This document shows, piece by piece, positions 20,023 through 61,068 of a stretch of 64,000 bases of DNA. Position 1 is the first letter of the stretch. Each line of letters starts with the position of its first letter. The notes beneath the pieces were generated by a model. It did not search any database. It saw nothing but the letters and a program-made list of their open reading frames with translations, and was not told the DNA's origin. The translations under genes and the position numbers were made by a program. This DNA comes from a virus (lineage: Duplodnaviria > Caudoviricetes), in IMG/VR virus record IMGVR_UViG_3300009873_000007, positions 9,693-73,692 of that record; one strand, 5' to 3'.

Positions 20023-20232
20023 ATGACGCAACCGGTATTGACTAACGTAAAAAAATCTACTATACTTATTGTCAACGAAGCGGCTGAAACCGTAACGCTA
20101 TCGCTGGACTATATTAAGATGCGCCACGATCAAGCGGTGGCAGAGGCGCAATTCTGGCGTAAGCTGATGGGGTTGGAACCGTTGCCAACCGGAGCAATGC
20201 AGCGTAGGACAGCGAAGCAGGTGAATCGTTAA
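20023..20232 (+). CDS. Small protein with basic C-terminus
   Basis: 69 aa; immediately precedes tRNA-like RNA. Confidence 0.6.
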   Translation: MTQPVLTNVKKSTILIVNEAAETVTLSLDYIKMRHDQAVAEAQFWRKLMGLEPLPTGAMQRRTAKQVNR

Positions 20233-20237
20233 TTATG

Positions 20238-20368
20238 TTGTCTGTAGCTCAGAAGCAGAGCAGTCGCCTACCGGCGATGATACACGCAACGTCAGGTTGA
20301 CATCTGGCCGAGAAAACGTGTAACCGCAAGTCAAAGCGGTGGCGCTAGTGCAAATCTAGCTGGACAGC
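20238..20368 (+). ncRNA. tRNA-like RNA with about 60-nt two-hairpin insertion in the variable region
   Basis: Acceptor TTGTCTG/TGGACAG, T8A9, D-stem GCTC/GAGC, anticodon-like stem GTCGC/GCGAT with 6-nt loop, T-arm GCTAG-TGCAAAT-CTAGC; no encoded CCA. Confidence 0.75.
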
Positions 20369-20387
20369 CTCAAAAAATTAAATATTA

Positions 20388-20447
20388 CGCCTAGAGCGTT
20401 CCGTTGATAAGGCGAGCATCGATTTAGTTCGATGTCTCGCCTTTTTT
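20388..20447 (+). promoter_or_regulatory. Late antiterminator/terminator element, copy A
   Basis: CGCCT-AG-AGCG-TTC-CGTT-GATA-AGGCG hairpin overlapping the terminator stem AGGCGAG..CTCGCCT-TTTTT. Confidence 0.75.
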
Positions 20448-20460
20448 GTTACCCGAAATT

Positions 20461-21663
20461 ATGACCATGAACGACGTTTCAGAACTCACATTTCCCTATC
20501 CGGCTCGTGTGTTGCGTGTGGATGTAGCGACACGAGCAACCGATTTGCTATCACTGGCGAAATCGCAAAGCGCCTTTGATCCATCCATTTTCGATGAACG
20601 AGCGCCTTTTTTCTGGACTGCCGAGATCAGCAACGACCAGATCGACTACTATTTCACCCACATGCTCGATAGTACGTTGGAAAACTTCGCCGCCGATGCC
20701 CGTTCCGGTGTCGCCTTTCAAAATAGCCATAACGTGCGAGAGTTGCCGCTTGGCCGAAGCCTGGATAGCCGCATTGAGACTGAAACTAACCGCAAGCGGG
20801 TAATGGTGGATTTTTATACGCTTGCCGGTCTGCGATTGAACGATGTCAGCACCGATGATTTCATTGCTGGCGTGCGCAGTGGCATCGTATCGGATGTTTC
20901 TGTTGGGTTCGGCGGTGGGAAGCATTTCTGCGATATTTGTCGCTCCAACTATCTGAGTTGGGATTGCCCACACGTTGCCGGCATGACCTATGACGTGAAA
21001 GACGCTGGCAGTGTGGTTGCTACTGTGAGTATTGATGGCGCACGATTGCACGAGGTCAGCGCCGTCTATGAGGGTGCTACACCTGACGCAACGATTGTCA
21101 AGGCACAACGCATGGCAGAGGCGGGCGAACTCCGACCCGAAGCCGTGCAAGTGTTGGAAGCTAGATACCGAATGCGATTACCGGCTAAACGAACATTCGC
21201 CGGGGTTGATGTACCAAAAAAGGATGAACCAATGGACTTTGAAACAATTGTGAATCAAGTGCGTGAGGCGCTCAGTGTTCCCGCCGATGGCGATGTGGTT
21301 GCCACTGTCACCGGCATCACTGGCGAGTTGGCGCAGTTGCGCACGGCCAAAGAAGCCGCCGATCAACGAATTCGCACACTCGAAACTGAGGCCGCCGATG
21401 GCCGTCAGTATCGCACAGATTTGGTGGCTGAAACGCTGGCGGAGGGCGTGCGAGCCTACGGTGATAAGTTCGAGCGGGCGACGTATGAGGAGCTTTTGAA
21501 AACAGCCTCACTGACCGTCATCAAGCGGATGAAAGCCGACTGGCAGAGTGTGGGCGACGAACGGTTCAGCGGTGGCCGCAAGAGCAATGATAACGGCGAT
21601 GCGCCTGTCAAGTCGCAAAGCAAACAGGCCGCTCGTGTTCCGAATGCAGCGTACAAGGCGTGA
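20461..21663 (+). CDS. Prohead protease/scaffold protein
   Basis: NSH...LPLGRS, VSDVSVGF, EVSAVYEGA protease-like motifs plus coiled-coil C-terminus. Confidence 0.75.
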   Translation: MTMNDVSELTFPYPARVLRVDVATRATDLLSLAKSQSAFDPSIFDERAPFFWTAEISNDQIDYYFTHMLDSTLENFAADARSGVAFQNSHNVRELPLGRSLDSRIETETNRKRVMVDFYTLAGLRLNDVSTDDFIAGVRSGIVSDVSVGFGGGKHFCDICRSNYLSWDCPHVAGMTYDVKDAGSVVATVSIDGARLHEVSAVYEGATPDATIVKAQRMAEAGELRPEAVQVLEARYRMRLPAKRTFAGVDVPKKDEPMDFETIVNQVREALSVPADGDVVATVTGITGELAQLRTAKEAADQRIRTLETEAADGRQYRTDLVAETLAEGVRAYGDKFERATYEELLKTASLTVIKRMKADWQSVGDERFSGGRKSNDNGDAPVKSQSKQAARVPNAAYKA

Positions 21664-21672
21664 GGTGATGAG

Positions 21673-22176
21673 ATGAAACAAAAATTCTACGTTGCTGGAT
21701 TTGTGGCTTTTGCGCTGCTGAGTGCGTTGCTGCTGTCTGTGATGCTCACCGGCTCGACTGTAGCTCAGTCGGACGTGAGCAATTACGATAATGTGCGCAC
21801 GTCGGGCTATGTCATTGCCGGTACTACCGTCACTGCCGGTACGGATGTTATCGCCGGGGATGATGTGACGTTGGGCGGCCATCTAGGTATGACTCCGGCC
21901 ACGACTATCACCGTAGGCTATCAAGGCACGATTACACCCACCGGCGGACTGCAATATCTCACTAGCACTGCCAATCGTGGCACTCGCCTGGTGGTAACTA
22001 CGACGTTGACCGCCGGGACGATTCAGGCATTTTACAACAGTGGTTCCAACACAATCACACTGACTGACACAGCGCCGTTGGTGCTGGGCGGCAATGCTGC
22101 TCTTGGGCCTGGCGATACGTTAGTTCTGTTTCACAACGGTACGTCTTGGGTTCAGTTGAGCAAGACAGATAATTAG
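21673..22176 (+). CDS. Head-module fibre-like protein with signal peptide
   Basis: MKQK plus long hydrophobic stretch; Thr/Gly-rich beta C-terminus (GDTLVLFHNGTSWVQLS). Confidence 0.6.
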   Translation: MKQKFYVAGFVAFALLSALLLSVMLTGSTVAQSDVSNYDNVRTSGYVIAGTTVTAGTDVIAGDDVTLGGHLGMTPATTITVGYQGTITPTGGLQYLTSTANRGTRLVVTTTLTAGTIQAFYNSGSNTITLTDTAPLVLGGNAALGPGDTLVLFHNGTSWVQLSKTDN

Positions 22177-25917: not shown

Positions 25918-26027
25918 CGCCTAGAACGAACACGTTGACAAGGCGACATGGTAGCCTAAAGGCTGCTTTGTCTTCCTTTGATGCAGGCGACAGGTAGCAA
26001 ATCGCTACTATGTCGCCTGTTTCATTT
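25918..26027 (+). promoter_or_regulatory. Late antiterminator/terminator element, copy B (duplicated stem arm)
   Basis: CGCCT-AG-AACG-AACA-CGTT-GACA-AGGCG; 3' arm GCTACTATGTCGCCT at 26004-26018. Confidence 0.7.
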
Positions 26028-26038
26028 GGAGGACTCGC

Positions 26039-27055
26039 ATGTCCGTTAATTCACTAGATGCCAGTATTAGCGTTGGCGTGCAATCCGCCAAAGGAACTGC
26101 CGCCACTGCGTATAAAACCGCACTGGCAACCACGAGCGGTGTCAACGCACGATTTGATGAGCGTCCTACGTTGTTGGAGCATCCTGGGTCGGGTAGCTCT
26201 GTGCCGTGGGAACTCAAAGCGGTCGCTGAACGCACCGGTTATCTCGTGCCGGTAAATGCCACATTCCTATTGCGCCCTCGATTTATCGGGCCAGTGTTGC
26301 GGGGTGTTATGGGCGTGAGCAGCGTCAACAATACGACGCACTACACCCACACGTTTACTCCTGCGACCAACGCCAACCTTGCATGGTTGACCGTCCTGCA
26401 TAAATTCGTTGGTGACAGCGATTTCGAGCGGAAGATCACCGATGTTCGACTGACGCAACTCAACATCGATGCAACACTGGAACAAGTGCAATGCCAAATG
26501 CAGGGGATGGGGCTAACAGAAGGGATTGCTGCCGGTACAGAAACCAAAGTTGCGGAAATCGGTACGGAGATTTCGCCCTACAGCGGCTCTGTCACTTGGA
26601 CAATTGCCGGGGATGCGCCTACCTCCACAATCCGTGGTGCGCAGGTTCAGATCACCCAAACGCTTGACGAGAATGATCGTGTGCTGTTCTCGCAGACTCG
26701 TGCCAACCTGCCACGCCAGCGGATTGCCGTAACTGGCACGGTGCGAGGTGTGGATATTGACGCTGATACGTATGAAGCGTACAAACTGACCAAATACGGT
26801 TCTGCCGCTGGTACTGCTCCCACACTGACTGCTCCTACCGGCCCACTCACCCTCACTTTTCAATCGCTGTCTAACATTAGCGGCGCTGCGGTTCCGTTCC
26901 GGCTGACGATGGCTTTCGCCAAAGTGCAATGGGACTTAGAGTCACCCAACGCCAACAATGATGATACCGTGAGGGCTGATATTACCTGGCGGCTAGTCGG
27001 TGATTCGAGTCCTGCCATGACATTTACGGTTGTTTCCGATCAGGCGACACCATAG
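26039..27055 (+). CDS. Major tail tube protein
   Basis: SVGVQSAKGTAAT, THYTHTFTP motifs; GGAGG RBS; precedes chaperone. Confidence 0.85.
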   Translation: MSVNSLDASISVGVQSAKGTAATAYKTALATTSGVNARFDERPTLLEHPGSGSSVPWELKAVAERTGYLVPVNATFLLRPRFIGPVLRGVMGVSSVNNTTHYTHTFTPATNANLAWLTVLHKFVGDSDFERKITDVRLTQLNIDATLEQVQCQMQGMGLTEGIAAGTETKVAEIGTEISPYSGSVTWTIAGDAPTSTIRGAQVQITQTLDENDRVLFSQTRANLPRQRIAVTGTVRGVDIDADTYEAYKLTKYGSAAGTAPTLTAPTGPLTLTFQSLSNISGAAVPFRLTMAFAKVQWDLESPNANNDDTVRADITWRLVGDSSPAMTFTVVSDQATP

Positions 27056-27070
27056 GAATCTTAACAATCT

Positions 27071-27583
27071 ATGCCACGAGCTACTAAGGCGACTACGCCC
27101 AAAGCTAACATCGAATCCACTCCCTTGATGGACTGGGAGCAATTCGCACAGATTGATTGCCGCACGCCGGACGGCCAGCAGGCTCGCATCTATGCAGGCG
27201 AGTGCCAGGTGCTAGACCAGGGTCGCTACAACAAATATATCAACGAGGCTGCCGATTATCTACGTCAAAAGTACGGCGAATCGGTTGACGATATGGAGAT
27301 TTGGAGCGACCGATTTAACGAGAATGTGGCGCTGCGCAACCGGGCGGCGATGCTGGCGACGTTCCGCAAATTCGAGGTGATGAACGGCGACGGTGCATAC
27401 CACGAAGCGCCATTACCGAGGGAATGGGTAGAGATTGAATCCTTTTTCAAGATGAACGGCAAACTGTACCGGGAATGGTCGCAGAATGCCGTGATGCTCA
27501 ATCCCGATCTTTTTGGCGTCAATCTGGATGATGACCAAAAAAAAGGATTAAGCGTCTCAACGACTTGGTTAACTCGTATGTAG
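27071..27583 (+). CDS. Tail assembly chaperone (gpG-like)
   Basis: Follows tail tube; ends after DDDQKK slippery site. Confidence 0.8.
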   Translation: MPRATKATTPKANIESTPLMDWEQFAQIDCRTPDGQQARIYAGECQVLDQGRYNKYINEAADYLRQKYGESVDDMEIWSDRFNENVALRNRAAMLATFRKFEVMNGDGAYHEAPLPREWVEIESFFKMNGKLYREWSQNAVMLNPDLFGVNLDDDQKKGLSVSTTWLTRM

Positions 27584-37273: not shown

Positions 37274-37335
37274 CGCTTAGAACGTTCTCGTTGACAAAGC
37301 GACAGTATCCCATCGGGGGTATTGTCGCTTTTTTT
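37274..37335 (+). promoter_or_regulatory. Late antiterminator/terminator element, copy C
   Basis: CGCTT-AG-AACG-TTCT-CGTT-GACA-AAGCG overlapping terminator AAAGCGACAGTATCC..GGGTATTGTCGCTTT-TTTT. Confidence 0.75.
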
Positions 37336-60582: not shown

Positions 60583-61068
60583 ATGGCTAAAGAAATCCTC
60601 TTAACCAAAGGTAAAGTTGCTATCGTTGATGATGCCGATTACGAGTATCTATCAAGATGGAAATGGCAGGTCTCTAAACAAGGATACGCCCGTCGCACTT
60701 ATTACAACAACGGCAAACGAACAAAACTCTTTATGCACCTTGCCATTCTTCAGCCACCTCCAGGTTTCATCATCGATCATATCAATGGTAACTCGCTGGA
60801 TAACCGCCGTGAAAACTTACGGCTTGCAACACCAAGCCAAAATAACGCTAATCGCCATCGGCCTAATCCTAAAATACATTCACAGTATAAAGGAGTAACG
60901 TTAGACACACGGCGACACCGATGGTATGCACAGATCAGCCATAATGACTGTGTAATTCATATCGGTACATTCACCAATGAACTCGAAGCCGCAAAAGCCT
61001 ACGATGCTAAAGCCAAAGAATTCTTTGGCGAGTTCGCTTACACGAATCTTGACGCTCAACTTTACTAG
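60583..61068 (+). CDS. HNH endonuclease with AP2 domain
   Basis: IDHINGNSLDNRRENLR; SQYKGV...WYAQI...AAKAYDAKA...FGEFA. Confidence 0.95.
   Translation: MAKEILLTKGKVAIVDDADYEYLSRWKWQVSKQGYARRTYYNNGKRTKLFMHLAILQPPPGFIIDHINGNSLDNRRENLRLATPSQNNANRHRPNPKIHSQYKGVTLDTRRHRWYAQISHNDCVIHIGTFTNELEAAKAYDAKAKEFFGEFAYTNLDAQLY

What the first reader, a model, noticed from the sequence alone, without database searches (positions are those of the whole stretch)
20238..20368. Oversized tRNA-like RNA with two loop-complementary hairpins in the head module
Seen: all four tRNA arms are present (7-bp acceptor, T8A9, GCTC/GAGC D-stem, T-arm with TGCAAAT loop). The anticodon loop is only 6 nt (CTACCG), there is no CCA, and the variable arm is replaced by hairpin 1 (TACACG/CGTGTA plus GTCAGG/TCTGGC, loop TTGACA) and hairpin 2 (ACCGC/GCGGT, loop AAGTCAAA). 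The loops are complementary (TTGAC/GTCAA). An extra G-1:C73 pair is possible. Inference: not a decoding tRNA. Unequal stem lengths could favour intermolecular kissing and oligomerisation (phi29 pRNA-like, given its position between portal/head and scaffold genes), or it could be a decoy for anticodon nucleases, or a tRNA-processing signal that cuts the late mRNA.
Basis: partly seen in the sequence, partly recalled or inferred. Interest (0 to 1): 0.85.

Follow-up and report, generated by a model that had tools for sequence, protein, structure and literature searches.

The report
Oversized tRNA-derived RNA gene in phage
A temperate phage carries, between its head genes, a 131-base gene that is clearly derived from a phage tRNA but holds an extra 60-base folded insert and cannot read codons as it stands; it is one more unexplained oversized phage tRNA look-alike, and no relative was found to test it.

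Summary
It has an acceptor stem, D arm, a short anticodon-like hairpin, two extra hairpins and a T arm.

It is tRNA-derived beyond chance. Its 18-nt D arm is identical to that of 14 distinct normal phage tRNAs, and a covariance model built from 13 of them hits it at E 6e-8. Its 17-nt T arm is identical to that of phage tRNA-Tyr genes.

ARAGORN and Rfam do not call it a tRNA. The closest relative (75% identical neighbouring protein) has the same gene order but lacks exactly this block, so it is a discrete gained or lost module.

No homologue carrying the insert was found in IMG/VR or JGI metagenomes, so covariation could not be tested.

Most likely it is a non-decoding, tRNA-framed RNA cut out of the late transcript. 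Its role (decoy, scaffold or processing mark) is not shown.

A rival reading is a tRNA(UCA) with a 61-nt insert in the anticodon loop. It is formally possible but sub-threshold, and no splicing route is evident. The phi29 pRNA analogy has no support.

This scan has noted oversized phage tRNA look-alikes before on other DNA. Lak megaphage "enigmatic introns" and T4 RNA C/D are the nearest published cases.

The parts
20237..20237 (+). G-1, able to pair with C73 (optional eighth acceptor pair)
   Evidence: Read directly from the sequence.
20238..20244 (+). Acceptor stem, 5' strand
   Evidence: Pairs with 20361-20367 (4 Watson-Crick and 3 G-U pairs). Pair probabilities are 0.2-0.99. The helix is in the MFE.
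20245..20262 (+). U8 A9, D arm (4-bp stem, loop AGAAGCA) and A26
   Evidence: This 18-nt string is identical in 14 distinct phage tRNA genes. It is the core of the R1 hit at 32 bits.
20263..20278 (+). Anticodon-like hairpin (5 bp with loop CUACCG, or 6 bp with loop UACC)
   Evidence: Pair probabilities 0.85-1.0. ARAGORN draws it as a 6-nt anticodon loop once the insert is trimmed.
20281..20322 (+). Hairpin 1: basal 6-bp stem, asymmetric internal loop, apical 6-7-bp stem, loop UUGACA
   Evidence: In the MFE and centroid. Pair probabilities 0.67-0.98.
20323..20340 (+). Hairpin 2: 5-bp stem, 8-nt loop AAGUCAAA. Its 3' strand can alternatively pair with 20263-20267.
   Evidence: Pair probabilities 0.93-0.99. 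The alternative pairing is used in ARAGORN's intron solution.
20341..20343 (+). GGC linker. The last base is in the position of C48.
   Evidence: Read directly from the sequence. The tRNA lineage has RGGUC at this place.
20344..20360 (+). T arm (5 bp, G53-C61 kept, loop UGCAAAU with G in place of U55)
   Evidence: The 17-nt string is identical in phage tRNA-Tyr(GTA) genes and in a family of tRNA-like RNAs of large phages.
20361..20368 (+). Acceptor stem 3' strand and discriminator C73; no encoded CCA
   Evidence: Read directly from the sequence. Homology with relative L082 resumes at 20369-20372, within 4 nt after C73.
20270..20330 (+). The 61 nt that ARAGORN treats as an intron in the alternative tRNA(UCA) reading
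   Evidence: Called only at lowered thresholds (ps95 and ps90). Both putative cut sites lie in hairpin loops of the MFE.
20023..20232 (+). Upstream 69-aa ORF. Its stop codon lies 5 nt before the element.
   Evidence: It is conserved in L082.
20388..20447 (+). Downstream conserved hairpin overlapping a strong intrinsic terminator (stem 20411-20441, U run 20442-20447). Not part of the insertion.
   Evidence: Read directly from the sequence. Also present in L082, which lacks the element.
20467..21663 (+). Protease/scaffold-like gene (398 aa from the ATG at 20467)
   Evidence: 358 homologues were found (120 listed). Invariant residues include His, Ser and a Cys/His cluster, and there is a conserved C-terminal part.

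Best explanation
The element is a gene derived from a phage tRNA that carries a structured insert of about 60 nt. It was gained or lost as one discrete module at the 3' end of the portal/head-morphogenesis transcription unit.

Shown:
- Its D arm and T arm are those of a lineage of phage tRNAs with a variant elbow: D loop AGAAGCA without G18G19, and T loop with G55.
- The whole 131 nt fold into a cloverleaf with two extra hairpins in the place of a variable arm.
- The module is absent from the nearest relative.

Inferred:
- It is transcribed with the upstream late genes and ends before or at the terminator at 20411-20447.
- Because the acceptor/T-arm stack and the elbow are intact, it is released by RNase P at the 5' end and by an RNase Z/BN-type enzyme at the 3' end. 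It may then receive CCA.
- The product is a stable RNA of about 131 nt. It cannot decode, because the anticodon-like hairpin has a 6-nt or 4-nt loop.
- It acts as a tRNA-framed RNA. The frame would give processing and stability. The two extra hairpins and the two anticodon-arm-like loops would be the working part, for example as a mimic or decoy for a tRNA-binding or tRNA-cutting host protein.

The last step (what it binds) is the weakest.
For: - D-arm 18-mer exact in 14 distinct phage tRNAs with seven different amino-acid identities by anticodon. Rfam calls those genes tRNA at 44-56 bits.
- R1 hit at 32 bits, E 6e-8. There was no such hit in 79 loci of related phages.
- T-arm 17-mer exact in phage tRNA-Tyr genes.
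- The MFE and centroid of the exact element are the six-helix cloverleaf, at -44.2 kcal/mol.
- ARAGORN default accepts the body once the two hairpins are removed.
- Indel against L082: flank homology ends at the stop codon 5 nt upstream of the element and resumes within 4 nt after C73.
- A second assembly (Logan run SRR6032603) has the same 234-nt spacer.
- All helices of the insert are intact, and the D, T and anticodon-like stems have no mismatch.
- Precedents: T4 RNA C and RNA D from the tRNA region, role unknown (PMC3014915); oversized tRNA genes in Lak phages (PMC6784885); a covarying tRNA-like family of about 112 nt in large phages with the same T arm.
Against: - No homologue with the insert was found. 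There is therefore no covariation and no evidence of selection.
- The acceptor stem has three G-U pairs, and the folding z-score is only -2.07.
- The nearest relative does without the element, so it is dispensable for head assembly.
- The 'spliced' UCA variant matches the tRNA lineage profile better than the variant without the two hairpins: 36.7 against 30.1 bits.
- Nothing links the element to any defence system or binding partner.
Confidence: 0.45

Rival explanations
1. Non-functional relic. A phage tRNA gene was hit by an insertion or internal rearrangement and no longer does anything. It persists because it is recent and harmless.
For: - It is a singleton, with no homologue in IMG/VR or JGI metagenomes.
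- It is absent from the nearest relative.
- It has a 6-nt anticodon loop and three G-U pairs in the acceptor stem.
- The phage has no other tRNA.
- Model R1 splits the element into two partial tRNA-like hits, which could reflect a rearranged duplication.
Against: - The D, T and anticodon-like stems have no mismatch.
- The 60-nt insert is itself fully helical, and in silico it makes the cloverleaf the MFE, whereas trimmed versions misfold.
- The module boundaries coincide with the ends of the tRNA.
- The two-unit fold is far less stable: -27 against -44 kcal/mol.
Confidence: 0.2
2. Interrupted opal-suppressor tRNA. The 61 nt at 20270-20330 are removed from the anticodon loop. Strand 20263-20267 then pairs with 20336-20340 and gives a 7-nt loop CUUCAAA (anticodon UCA). 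The tRNA would read UGA late in infection, for example the single UGA that ends the protease/scaffold gene in frame with the next ORF.
For: - ARAGORN with introns calls this solution at ps95 and ps90.
- The in-silico spliced form passes ARAGORN default and scores best against the lineage profile: 36.7 bits.
- The insert loop UUGAC is complementary to G+UCA+A, that is, to the would-be anticodon.
- Both cut sites lie in exposed hairpin loops.
- The protease/scaffold gene ends in one TGA in frame with the next ORF, whereas L082 has TAA then TGA. TGA ends this gene in 7 of 44 relatives, none of them among the closest loci L002-L025.
- Lak phages carry tRNA genes with unexplained inserts (PMC6784885).
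Against: - The call is sub-threshold. At ps95 there were 25 hits in 1.47 Mb of shuffles, about 1.25 per genome length. ARAGORN -i default does not report the element.
- The precursor fold with the mature anticodon stem is 13 kcal/mol worse, and that stem has zero probability in the ensemble.
- The variable loop would be only 3 nt, against RGGUC in the lineage.
- Other cut points give ACC instead of UCA.
- The host is a bacterium (DnaB, Pol III beta clamp, RusA, SSB). Bacteria are not known to have a tRNA splicing endonuclease (established knowledge), and 61 nt is too short for a group I intron.
- No RNA ligase, kinase or endonuclease was seen in the held 73.7 kb.
- 49 of 113 ORFs end in TGA and coding density is 90% under code 11, so TGA is not recoded.
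Confidence: 0.1
3. Cis-acting processing mark. The tRNA shape serves only to recruit RNase P and RNase Z. These cut the long late transcript between the portal/minor-head genes and the capsid operon leader, which uncouples their stabilities. The released RNA has no role.
For: - Its position is exactly between two gene blocks, 5 nt after a stop codon and 19 nt before a conserved leader hairpin and terminator.
- It has an intact acceptor/T-arm stack.
- It has no usable anticodon loop.
Against: - A plain tRNA or hairpin would do the same job, and this idea does not explain the elaborate 60-nt insert.
- The relative L082 has the same leader and terminator without the element.
- The other two copies of the leader hairpin (25918, 37274) have no tRNA-like element upstream.
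Confidence: 0.12
4. Self-assembling RNA in the manner of phi29 pRNA. The two complementary loops pair between molecules and build a ring or chain that takes part in head assembly or packaging.
For: - There is 5-nt Watson-Crick complementarity between the loops of hairpins 1 and 2 (P 0.006 for that pair).
- The two hairpins abut without a linker, so coaxial stacking would place the loops far apart. That would favour pairing between molecules (inference).
- The element lies in the head module.
Against: - The phage has TerS, TerL and portal of the ordinary kind.
- The nearest relative lacks the element.
- There is no Rfam match.
- The chance of some such loop pair in this structure is 6%.
- There are no homologues in which to test loop covariation.
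Confidence: 0.02
5. tRNA-framed riboregulator of the phage's own late leaders. The hairpin 2 loop (GUCAA) pairs with the UUGAY segment in the 3' half of the three conserved leader hairpins (20388, 25918, 37274) and shifts the choice between hairpin and terminator. The hairpin 1 loop carries the same heptamer as leaders 2 and 3 and masks the seed.
For: - The heptamer GUUGACA of the hairpin 1 loop region is identical to the conserved segment of leader copies 2 and 3. Copy 1 has GUUGAUA.
- The hairpin 2 loop is complementary to it.
Against: - By my own estimate (about 125 x 21 placements / 4^7) a shared heptamer has roughly a 16% chance.
- The seed is only 5 nt.
- L082 has a leader but no such RNA.
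Confidence: 0.04

Closest known systems
tRNA genes with 'enigmatic introns' in Lak megaphages (Devoto et al. 2019, PMC6784885)
   Same: Both are phage-encoded tRNA genes that are much longer than normal and are missed by bacterial tRNA finders. In both, the insert has no known splicing route and matches no Rfam family. In both, copies with and without the insert exist among relatives.
   Different: The Lak cases lie in tRNA arrays of genomes of about 540 kb that use an alternative code, and their inserts are conserved across cohorts. This element is a lone gene in the head module of a temperate phage using the standard code. In its most stable fold the insert sits in the variable-arm position, and no second copy is known.
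Bacteriophage T4 RNA C and RNA D (stable RNAs of the tRNA region; PMC3014915)
   Same: They are small stable phage RNAs transcribed with tRNAs, and their role is unknown. They show that phages keep tRNA-associated non-decoding RNAs.
   Different: The T4 RNAs lie inside a tRNA cluster of a lytic phage.
Lineage of phage tRNAs with D loop AGAAGCA and T loop KGCARAW
   Same: The 18-nt D arm with U8 A9 and A26 is identical. The T loop has G55 C56 A57. Acceptor and T stems have the same lengths.
   Different: Lineage members are 72 nt long, with a 7-nt anticodon loop and an RGGUC variable loop, and Rfam calls them tRNA. The element is 131 nt long, has a 6-nt loop, and has 60 extra nt between G-A and G-G-C.
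Class II tRNAs and tRNA-Sec (long variable arm)
   Same: There is extra helical RNA between the anticodon arm and the T arm. An eighth acceptor pair (G-1:C73) is possible. UCA appears in the alternative reading.
   Different: Class II tRNAs have a single variable hairpin of up to about 20 nt, whereas the element has two hairpins totalling 60 nt. The 6-bp D stem of tRNA-Sec is absent. There is no 7-nt anticodon loop in the native fold.
phi29 pRNA
   Same: Similar size (about 120-130 nt), and two loops that are mutually complementary.
   Different: pRNA belongs to phages with a dedicated packaging ATPase and protein-primed genomes, and it is not tRNA-shaped. This phage has TerS and TerL, and the nearest relative lacks the RNA.
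Engineered 'tRNA scaffold' RNAs (own knowledge, Ponchon and Dardel)
   Same: A foreign structured RNA is carried inside a tRNA frame, so that the cell processes and stabilises it like a tRNA.
   Different: The scaffold is man-made, and its insert replaces the anticodon stem. Whether the frame serves that purpose here is inference.

Membership tests
Canonical tRNA (Rfam RF00005 / ARAGORN) | Acceptor stem of 7 bp, U8, 4-bp D stem, 5-bp T stem with G53-C61, discriminator base | tested here: met
   Sequence and MFE.
Canonical tRNA (Rfam RF00005 / ARAGORN) | 7-nt anticodon loop with U33 and a purine at 37 | tested here: not met
   The loop is 6 nt (CUACCG), or 4 nt in the MFE. A 7-nt loop arises only after a hypothetical removal of 61 nt.
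Canonical tRNA (Rfam RF00005 / ARAGORN) | Score above the family threshold | tested here: not met
   No RF00005 match even at E <= 10 on 331 nt. ARAGORN finds 0 genes in the window and in the genome.
Canonical tRNA (Rfam RF00005 / ARAGORN) | G18 G19 in the D loop and U55 C56 in the T loop (elbow) | tested here: not met
   The D loop is AGAAGCA and the T loop is UGCAAAU. The same variant occurs in the lineage of normal phage tRNAs.
Phage tRNA lineage A3/R1 (variant elbow) | Invariant U8-A26 block (18 nt) and T loop with G55 C56 A57 | tested here: met
   18 of 18 identical. R1 hit at 32 bits.
Phage tRNA lineage A3/R1 (variant elbow) | Length of 72 nt with an RGGUC variable loop and a 7-nt anticodon loop | tested here: not met
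   The element is 131 nt. R1 aligns only the 5' 63 nt as one hit and the 3' 65 nt as a weak second hit at 9.3 bits.
Intron-bearing tRNA (archaeal/eukaryal type, or Lak type) | Insert inside the anticodon loop whose removal restores a normal tRNA | tested here: inconclusive
   This is possible (UCA or ACC), and the spliced forms pass ARAGORN default. The intron call is sub-threshold, and the variable loop would be 3 nt.
Intron-bearing tRNA (archaeal/eukaryal type, or Lak type) | Bulge-helix-bulge at the splice sites, with the anticodon stem formed in the precursor | tested here: not met
   The putative cut sites lie in two separate hairpin loops. The mature anticodon stem has probability 0 and costs 13 kcal/mol.
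Intron-bearing tRNA (archaeal/eukaryal type, or Lak type) | An uninterrupted allele, or a splicing enzyme, at hand | tested here: not met
   No uninterrupted homologue. No RNA ligase or endonuclease among the 59 ORFs scanned. The record is estimated to be 54% complete.
tRNA-Sec | 8-bp acceptor stem, 6-bp D stem, long variable arm, anticodon UCA | tested here: not met
   An eighth acceptor pair is possible, but the D stem is 4 bp. UCA appears only in the hypothetical spliced form, which then has no long arm.
phi29 pRNA | Rfam pRNA match; a phage with a pRNA-dependent motor instead of TerS/TerL | tested here: not met
   No Rfam hit. TerL, TerS and portal are present.
phi29 pRNA | Intermolecular loop-loop pairing that builds a ring | not testable with these tools
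   Complementarity of 5 nt exists. Whether it forms within or between molecules needs native gels.
tmRNA / Y-RNA-like (YrlA) | Family model match; a tag reading frame (tmRNA) | tested here: not met
   ARAGORN -m and Rfam find nothing.
T4 RNA C / RNA D | Sequence or structure similarity to the T4 RNAs | not tested
Only the literature statement that their roles are unknown was read.

The most novel reading that the evidence does not exclude
A bacteriophage tRNA is interrupted by a 61-nt non-group-I insert whose two ends sit in exposed anticodon-arm-like loops. It is cut and rejoined in a bacterial cell, by enzymes not yet tied to tRNA splicing in bacteria (for instance an anticodon-loop nuclease plus an RtcB-type ligase). 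The product would be an opal-suppressor tRNA(UCA). Late in infection it would read through the single UGA that ends the protease/scaffold gene and fuse that protein to the next ORF.
Probability: 0.06. Interest if true: 0.85.

Novelty: new variant of a known kind. Interest (0 to 1): 0.4.

Why it matters
Standard annotation misses oversized tRNA-shaped genes in phages, and their purpose is unknown. Published cases (T4 RNA C/D, Lak phage 'introns') have stayed unexplained for years.

This example is small and clean. It sits in a mid-sized temperate phage with only this one tRNA-related gene, and a close relative lacks it. A deletion or transplant experiment would therefore be simple to read.

If it is a decoy or a tRNA-framed regulator, it adds a way for phages to use the tRNA processing machinery. 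If it is spliced, it would show protein-dependent tRNA splicing in bacteria.

As it stands, it is a well-documented single case without evidence of conservation.

Tried and rejected
Searches for homologues
1. Blastn against 50,697 GenBank phages found nothing.
2. Single-protein scans of IMG/VR found nothing.
3. An alignment-based scan gave 80 related loci, but none holds the element by blastn, nhmmer, ARAGORN or model R1.
4. The D-arm pattern with an oversized spacer in JGI metagenomes gave 4 hits, all normal tRNAs with a chance downstream match.
5. An insert-specific 19-mer had 0 hits in IMG/VR.
6. GTDB genomes gave only distant prophage-like loci in MAGs, with no clear host. These eight loci were not searched for the element.
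7. Exact-protein look-ups of the flanking genes found only one other contig, with no DNA available.

Expression

Structure and family tests
9. Known ribozymes and RNA families: there is no relevant Rfam match at E <= 10. A hammerhead reading was checked by eye and rejected, because the core motif and stem II are missing.
10. A repeat or mobile-element origin of the insert was tested. There is no second copy in the genome.
11. A fold as two small tRNA-like units, suggested by the two R1 hits, was rejected on energy: -27 against -44 kcal/mol.
12. The minus strand folds less well (z -1.62) and lacks tRNA landmarks.

Other readings
13. TGA recoding was rejected.
14. An attP reading was rejected. 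The integrase lies 41 kb away, and the element is a whole tRNA-like unit.
15. ARAGORN -i default calls a tRNA-Val with a 150-nt intron at window 26987-27229. It spans the junction of two coding ORFs (26039-27055 and 27071-27583), and I take it as a false positive.

Full report
**What is there**

The window is part of an IMG/VR virus record of 73.7 kb, estimated to be 54% complete. It is a temperate bacteriophage. It encodes a DnaB-type helicase, a Pol III beta clamp, SSB, RusA, a tyrosine integrase, TerS, TerL, a portal and an HK97-type major head protein.

The finding lies in a 234-nt spacer. Upstream is a 69-aa ORF (20023-20232). Downstream is a protease/scaffold-like gene (20467-21663), which has hundreds of homologues.

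Folded on its own, 20238-20368 gives as MFE and centroid the acceptor stem, D arm, a short anticodon-like hairpin, hairpin 1, hairpin 2 and the T arm (-44.2 kcal/mol, z -2.07). The minus strand folds less well and has no tRNA landmarks.

**Is it more than chance?**

Yes, as far as tRNA ancestry goes.
- The 18 nt from U8 to A26 recur exactly in 14 IMG/VR and 4 JGI loci. Each of these is a 72-nt tRNA gene with a proper cloverleaf. Their anticodons are for Pro, Lys, Ile, Thr, Val, Met and Gly.
- These tRNAs share an unusual elbow: D loop AGAAGCA without G18G19, and T loop KGCARAW with G55.
- ARAGORN missed 11 of the 14 IMG/VR loci. Rfam calls the six I checked tRNA at 44-56 bits.
- A covariance model of 13 of them (A3, R1) hits the element at 32 bits, E 6e-8 over 480 kb, and hits nothing in 79 loci of related phages.
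- The 17-nt T arm is identical to that of phage tRNA-Tyr(GTA) genes.
- ARAGORN in plain mode gives no hit in 1.47 Mb of shuffled genome, yet accepts the element when the two extra hairpins are deleted in silico.

The loop-loop complementarity (UUGAC/GUCAA) is real but only modestly improbable. Its chance is 0.6% for that pair of loops and 6.3% for any pair of the five terminal loops.

**A discrete module**

The closest relative is L082, a Logan contig whose protease/scaffold protein is 75% identical. It has the same gene order, but its spacer is about 130 nt shorter. Flank homology runs to the stop codon of the 69-aa ORF and resumes within 4 nt after C73, at the A-rich stretch that precedes a conserved leader hairpin and terminator. 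The whole tRNA-shaped unit, insert included, is therefore one indel. A second assembly of the same phage has the same 234-nt spacer, but its DNA could not be fetched.

**No relatives with the insert**

None of the following found one:
- GenBank phages
- 80 related IMG/VR loci
- the D-arm, T-arm and insert patterns in IMG/VR
- an oversized-spacer pattern in JGI metagenomes.

A scan of GTDB genomes gave only eight distant prophage-like loci, which I did not search for the element.

**Two ways to read the middle**

The anticodon-like hairpin is 20263-20278, with a 6-nt loop. Then come G-A, 60 nt of two hairpins, and G-G-C, so the extra RNA sits where class II tRNAs carry their long arm. This is the thermodynamic optimum.

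(A) ARAGORN with introns, at 95% or 90% of its thresholds. It pairs 20263-20267 with 20336-20340 and treats 20270-20330 as an intron. The result is a loop CUUCAAA with anticodon UCA.

Points in favour of A:
- The spliced form passes ARAGORN default and fits the lineage profile best: 36.7 bits, against 30.1 for B.
- The hairpin 1 loop is complementary to the would-be anticodon.
- Both cut sites lie in open loops.
- The protease/scaffold gene ends in a single TGA in frame with the next ORF. L082 has TAA then TGA, and 37 of 44 relatives, including all of the closest loci, use TAA or TAG.

Points against A:
- The call is sub-threshold. At ps95 there were 25 false hits in 1.47 Mb of shuffles, and ARAGORN -i default does not report the element.
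- The mature stem has zero ensemble probability and costs 13 kcal/mol.
- The variable loop would be 3 nt, against the lineage's 5.
- A shift of the cut points gives ACC instead of UCA.
- The host is bacterial, where no tRNA splicing endonuclease is known, and 61 nt is too short for a group I intron (established knowledge).
- No RNA ligase, kinase or suitable nuclease was seen among the 59 ORFs scanned.
- TGA is the commonest stop (49 of 113 ORFs) and coding density is 90% under code 11, so there is no recoding.

I give A about 0.1.

**Most likely mechanism**

Shown: the element is a tRNA-derived module with a well-folded insert. It lies on the coding strand, 5 nt after a stop codon and upstream of a strong terminator (20411-20447).

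Inferred: it is co-transcribed with the portal/head-morphogenesis genes. The intact acceptor/T-arm stack and elbow let RNase P and an RNase Z/BN-type enzyme release it. Genes without encoded CCA are common in the lineage. The product is a stable RNA of about 131 nt that cannot decode. I take it to be a tRNA-framed RNA whose working part is the extra domain together with the two anticodon-arm-like loops. A mimic or decoy for a tRNA-binding or tRNA-cleaving host factor is the leading guess, and it is untested.

Rivals, with my confidence in each:
- a harmless relic (0.2)
- a pure processing mark (0.12)
- the interrupted suppressor (0.1)
- a regulator of the phage's own leader hairpins (0.04)
- a pRNA-like assembly RNA (0.02).

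The pRNA idea is weak. The phage has an ordinary terminase, the relative lacks the RNA, and the loop match is not strong evidence.

**Comparison with what is known**

The nearest published cases are:
- the 'enigmatic introns' in Lak megaphage tRNA genes (PMC6784885)
- T4 RNA C and RNA D, whose roles are still unknown (PMC3014915).

In my own data, large-phage loci contain two related things. One is tRNA hits of 121-135 nt with an insert of roughly 50-65 nt in the anticodon region. The other is a covarying tRNA-like family of about 112 nt with the very same T arm.

Notes from this scan list many oversized phage tRNA look-alikes on other DNA. They are unchecked AI notes and I use them only as context.

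The element fails membership of RF00005, tRNA-Sec, tmRNA and pRNA on tested features. It shares the defining D arm and T loop of the variant-elbow phage tRNA lineage, but not that lineage's length or loops.

**Verdict**

The element is real, tRNA-derived and structurally striking. It is also a single case without conservation or expression evidence, and it belongs to a kind of oddity already seen in phages. I class it as a new variant of a known kind, with interest 0.4.

Noticed in passing
window 20388-20447, 25918-25945, 37274-37335: Three copies of a conserved 27-nt hairpin (CGCYUAGARCG..CGUUGAYAARGCG). In at least copies 1 and 3 its 3' end overlaps the 5' strand of a terminator. Copy 1 is also present in relative L082. 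The hairpin 1 loop region of the tRNA-like element carries the same heptamer GUUGACA as copies 2 and 3, and the hairpin 2 loop is complementary to it. By my estimate the chance is about 16%.
   Followed up: partly
L083-L100 (e.g. L084:7246-7317 -, L085:7813-7884 +, L092:1926-1997 +): A lineage of 72-nt phage tRNAs with at least seven different amino-acid identities by anticodon. All share an invariant 18-nt U8-A26 block (D loop AGAAGCA, no G18G19) and a T loop with G55. Most have a U53-U61 or U53-C61 mismatch. ARAGORN missed 11 of the 14 IMG/VR loci. Rfam scores the six I checked at 44-56 bits.
   Followed up: partly
L120:10153-10268 +, L102:12027-12142 -, L103:4949-5064 -, L110:13783-13898 -, L112:3537-3652 -, L135:4630-4745 -: A tRNA-like RNA of about 112 nt in large (95-295 kb) phage contigs, next to a tRNA (tRNA-Met where called; tRNA-Ile in L112). 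It has an 8-bp acceptor stem, the same T arm as the finding, and three internal hairpins. 14 of 37 pairs show compensatory changes. There is no Rfam match at gathering score at the four of these sites that were scanned.
   Followed up: partly
L103:3877-4000 -, L135:2962-3082 -, L112:674-808 -: Three homologous oversized tRNA hits (121-135 nt, RF00005 at 34-40 bits) with an insert of roughly 50-65 nt in the anticodon region. ARAGORN's intron solutions disagree among them (Asn, Arg, Arg).
   Followed up: partly
L103:4016-4449 -: A GOLLD-like match (73.7 bits, E 7e-19 in a 1.35-kb search, below the gathering score of 150) directly beside the oversized tRNA. tmRNA genes are present in the four of these loci that were scanned (L103, L112, L120, L135).
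   Followed up: no
window 21655-21675; L082:3350-3375: The protease/scaffold gene ends in a single TGA that is part of the next gene's ribosome-binding site and is in frame with that gene (three sense codons between). L082 has TAA followed by TGA. 37 of 44 relatives use TAA or TAG.
   Followed up: partly
window 26987-27229: ARAGORN with introns (default threshold) calls a tRNA-Val(GAC) with a 150-nt intron across the junction of two coding ORFs. This is probably a false positive.
   Followed up: no
L144 (G000:C1:1-10000) and window 60583-61068: The left arm outside the window encodes two HNH endonucleases, N6/N4 and C5 DNA methylases, a trypsin-like protease, ThyX and a dCTP deaminase-like protein. 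An HNH-AP2 protein lies near the integrase.
   Followed up: no
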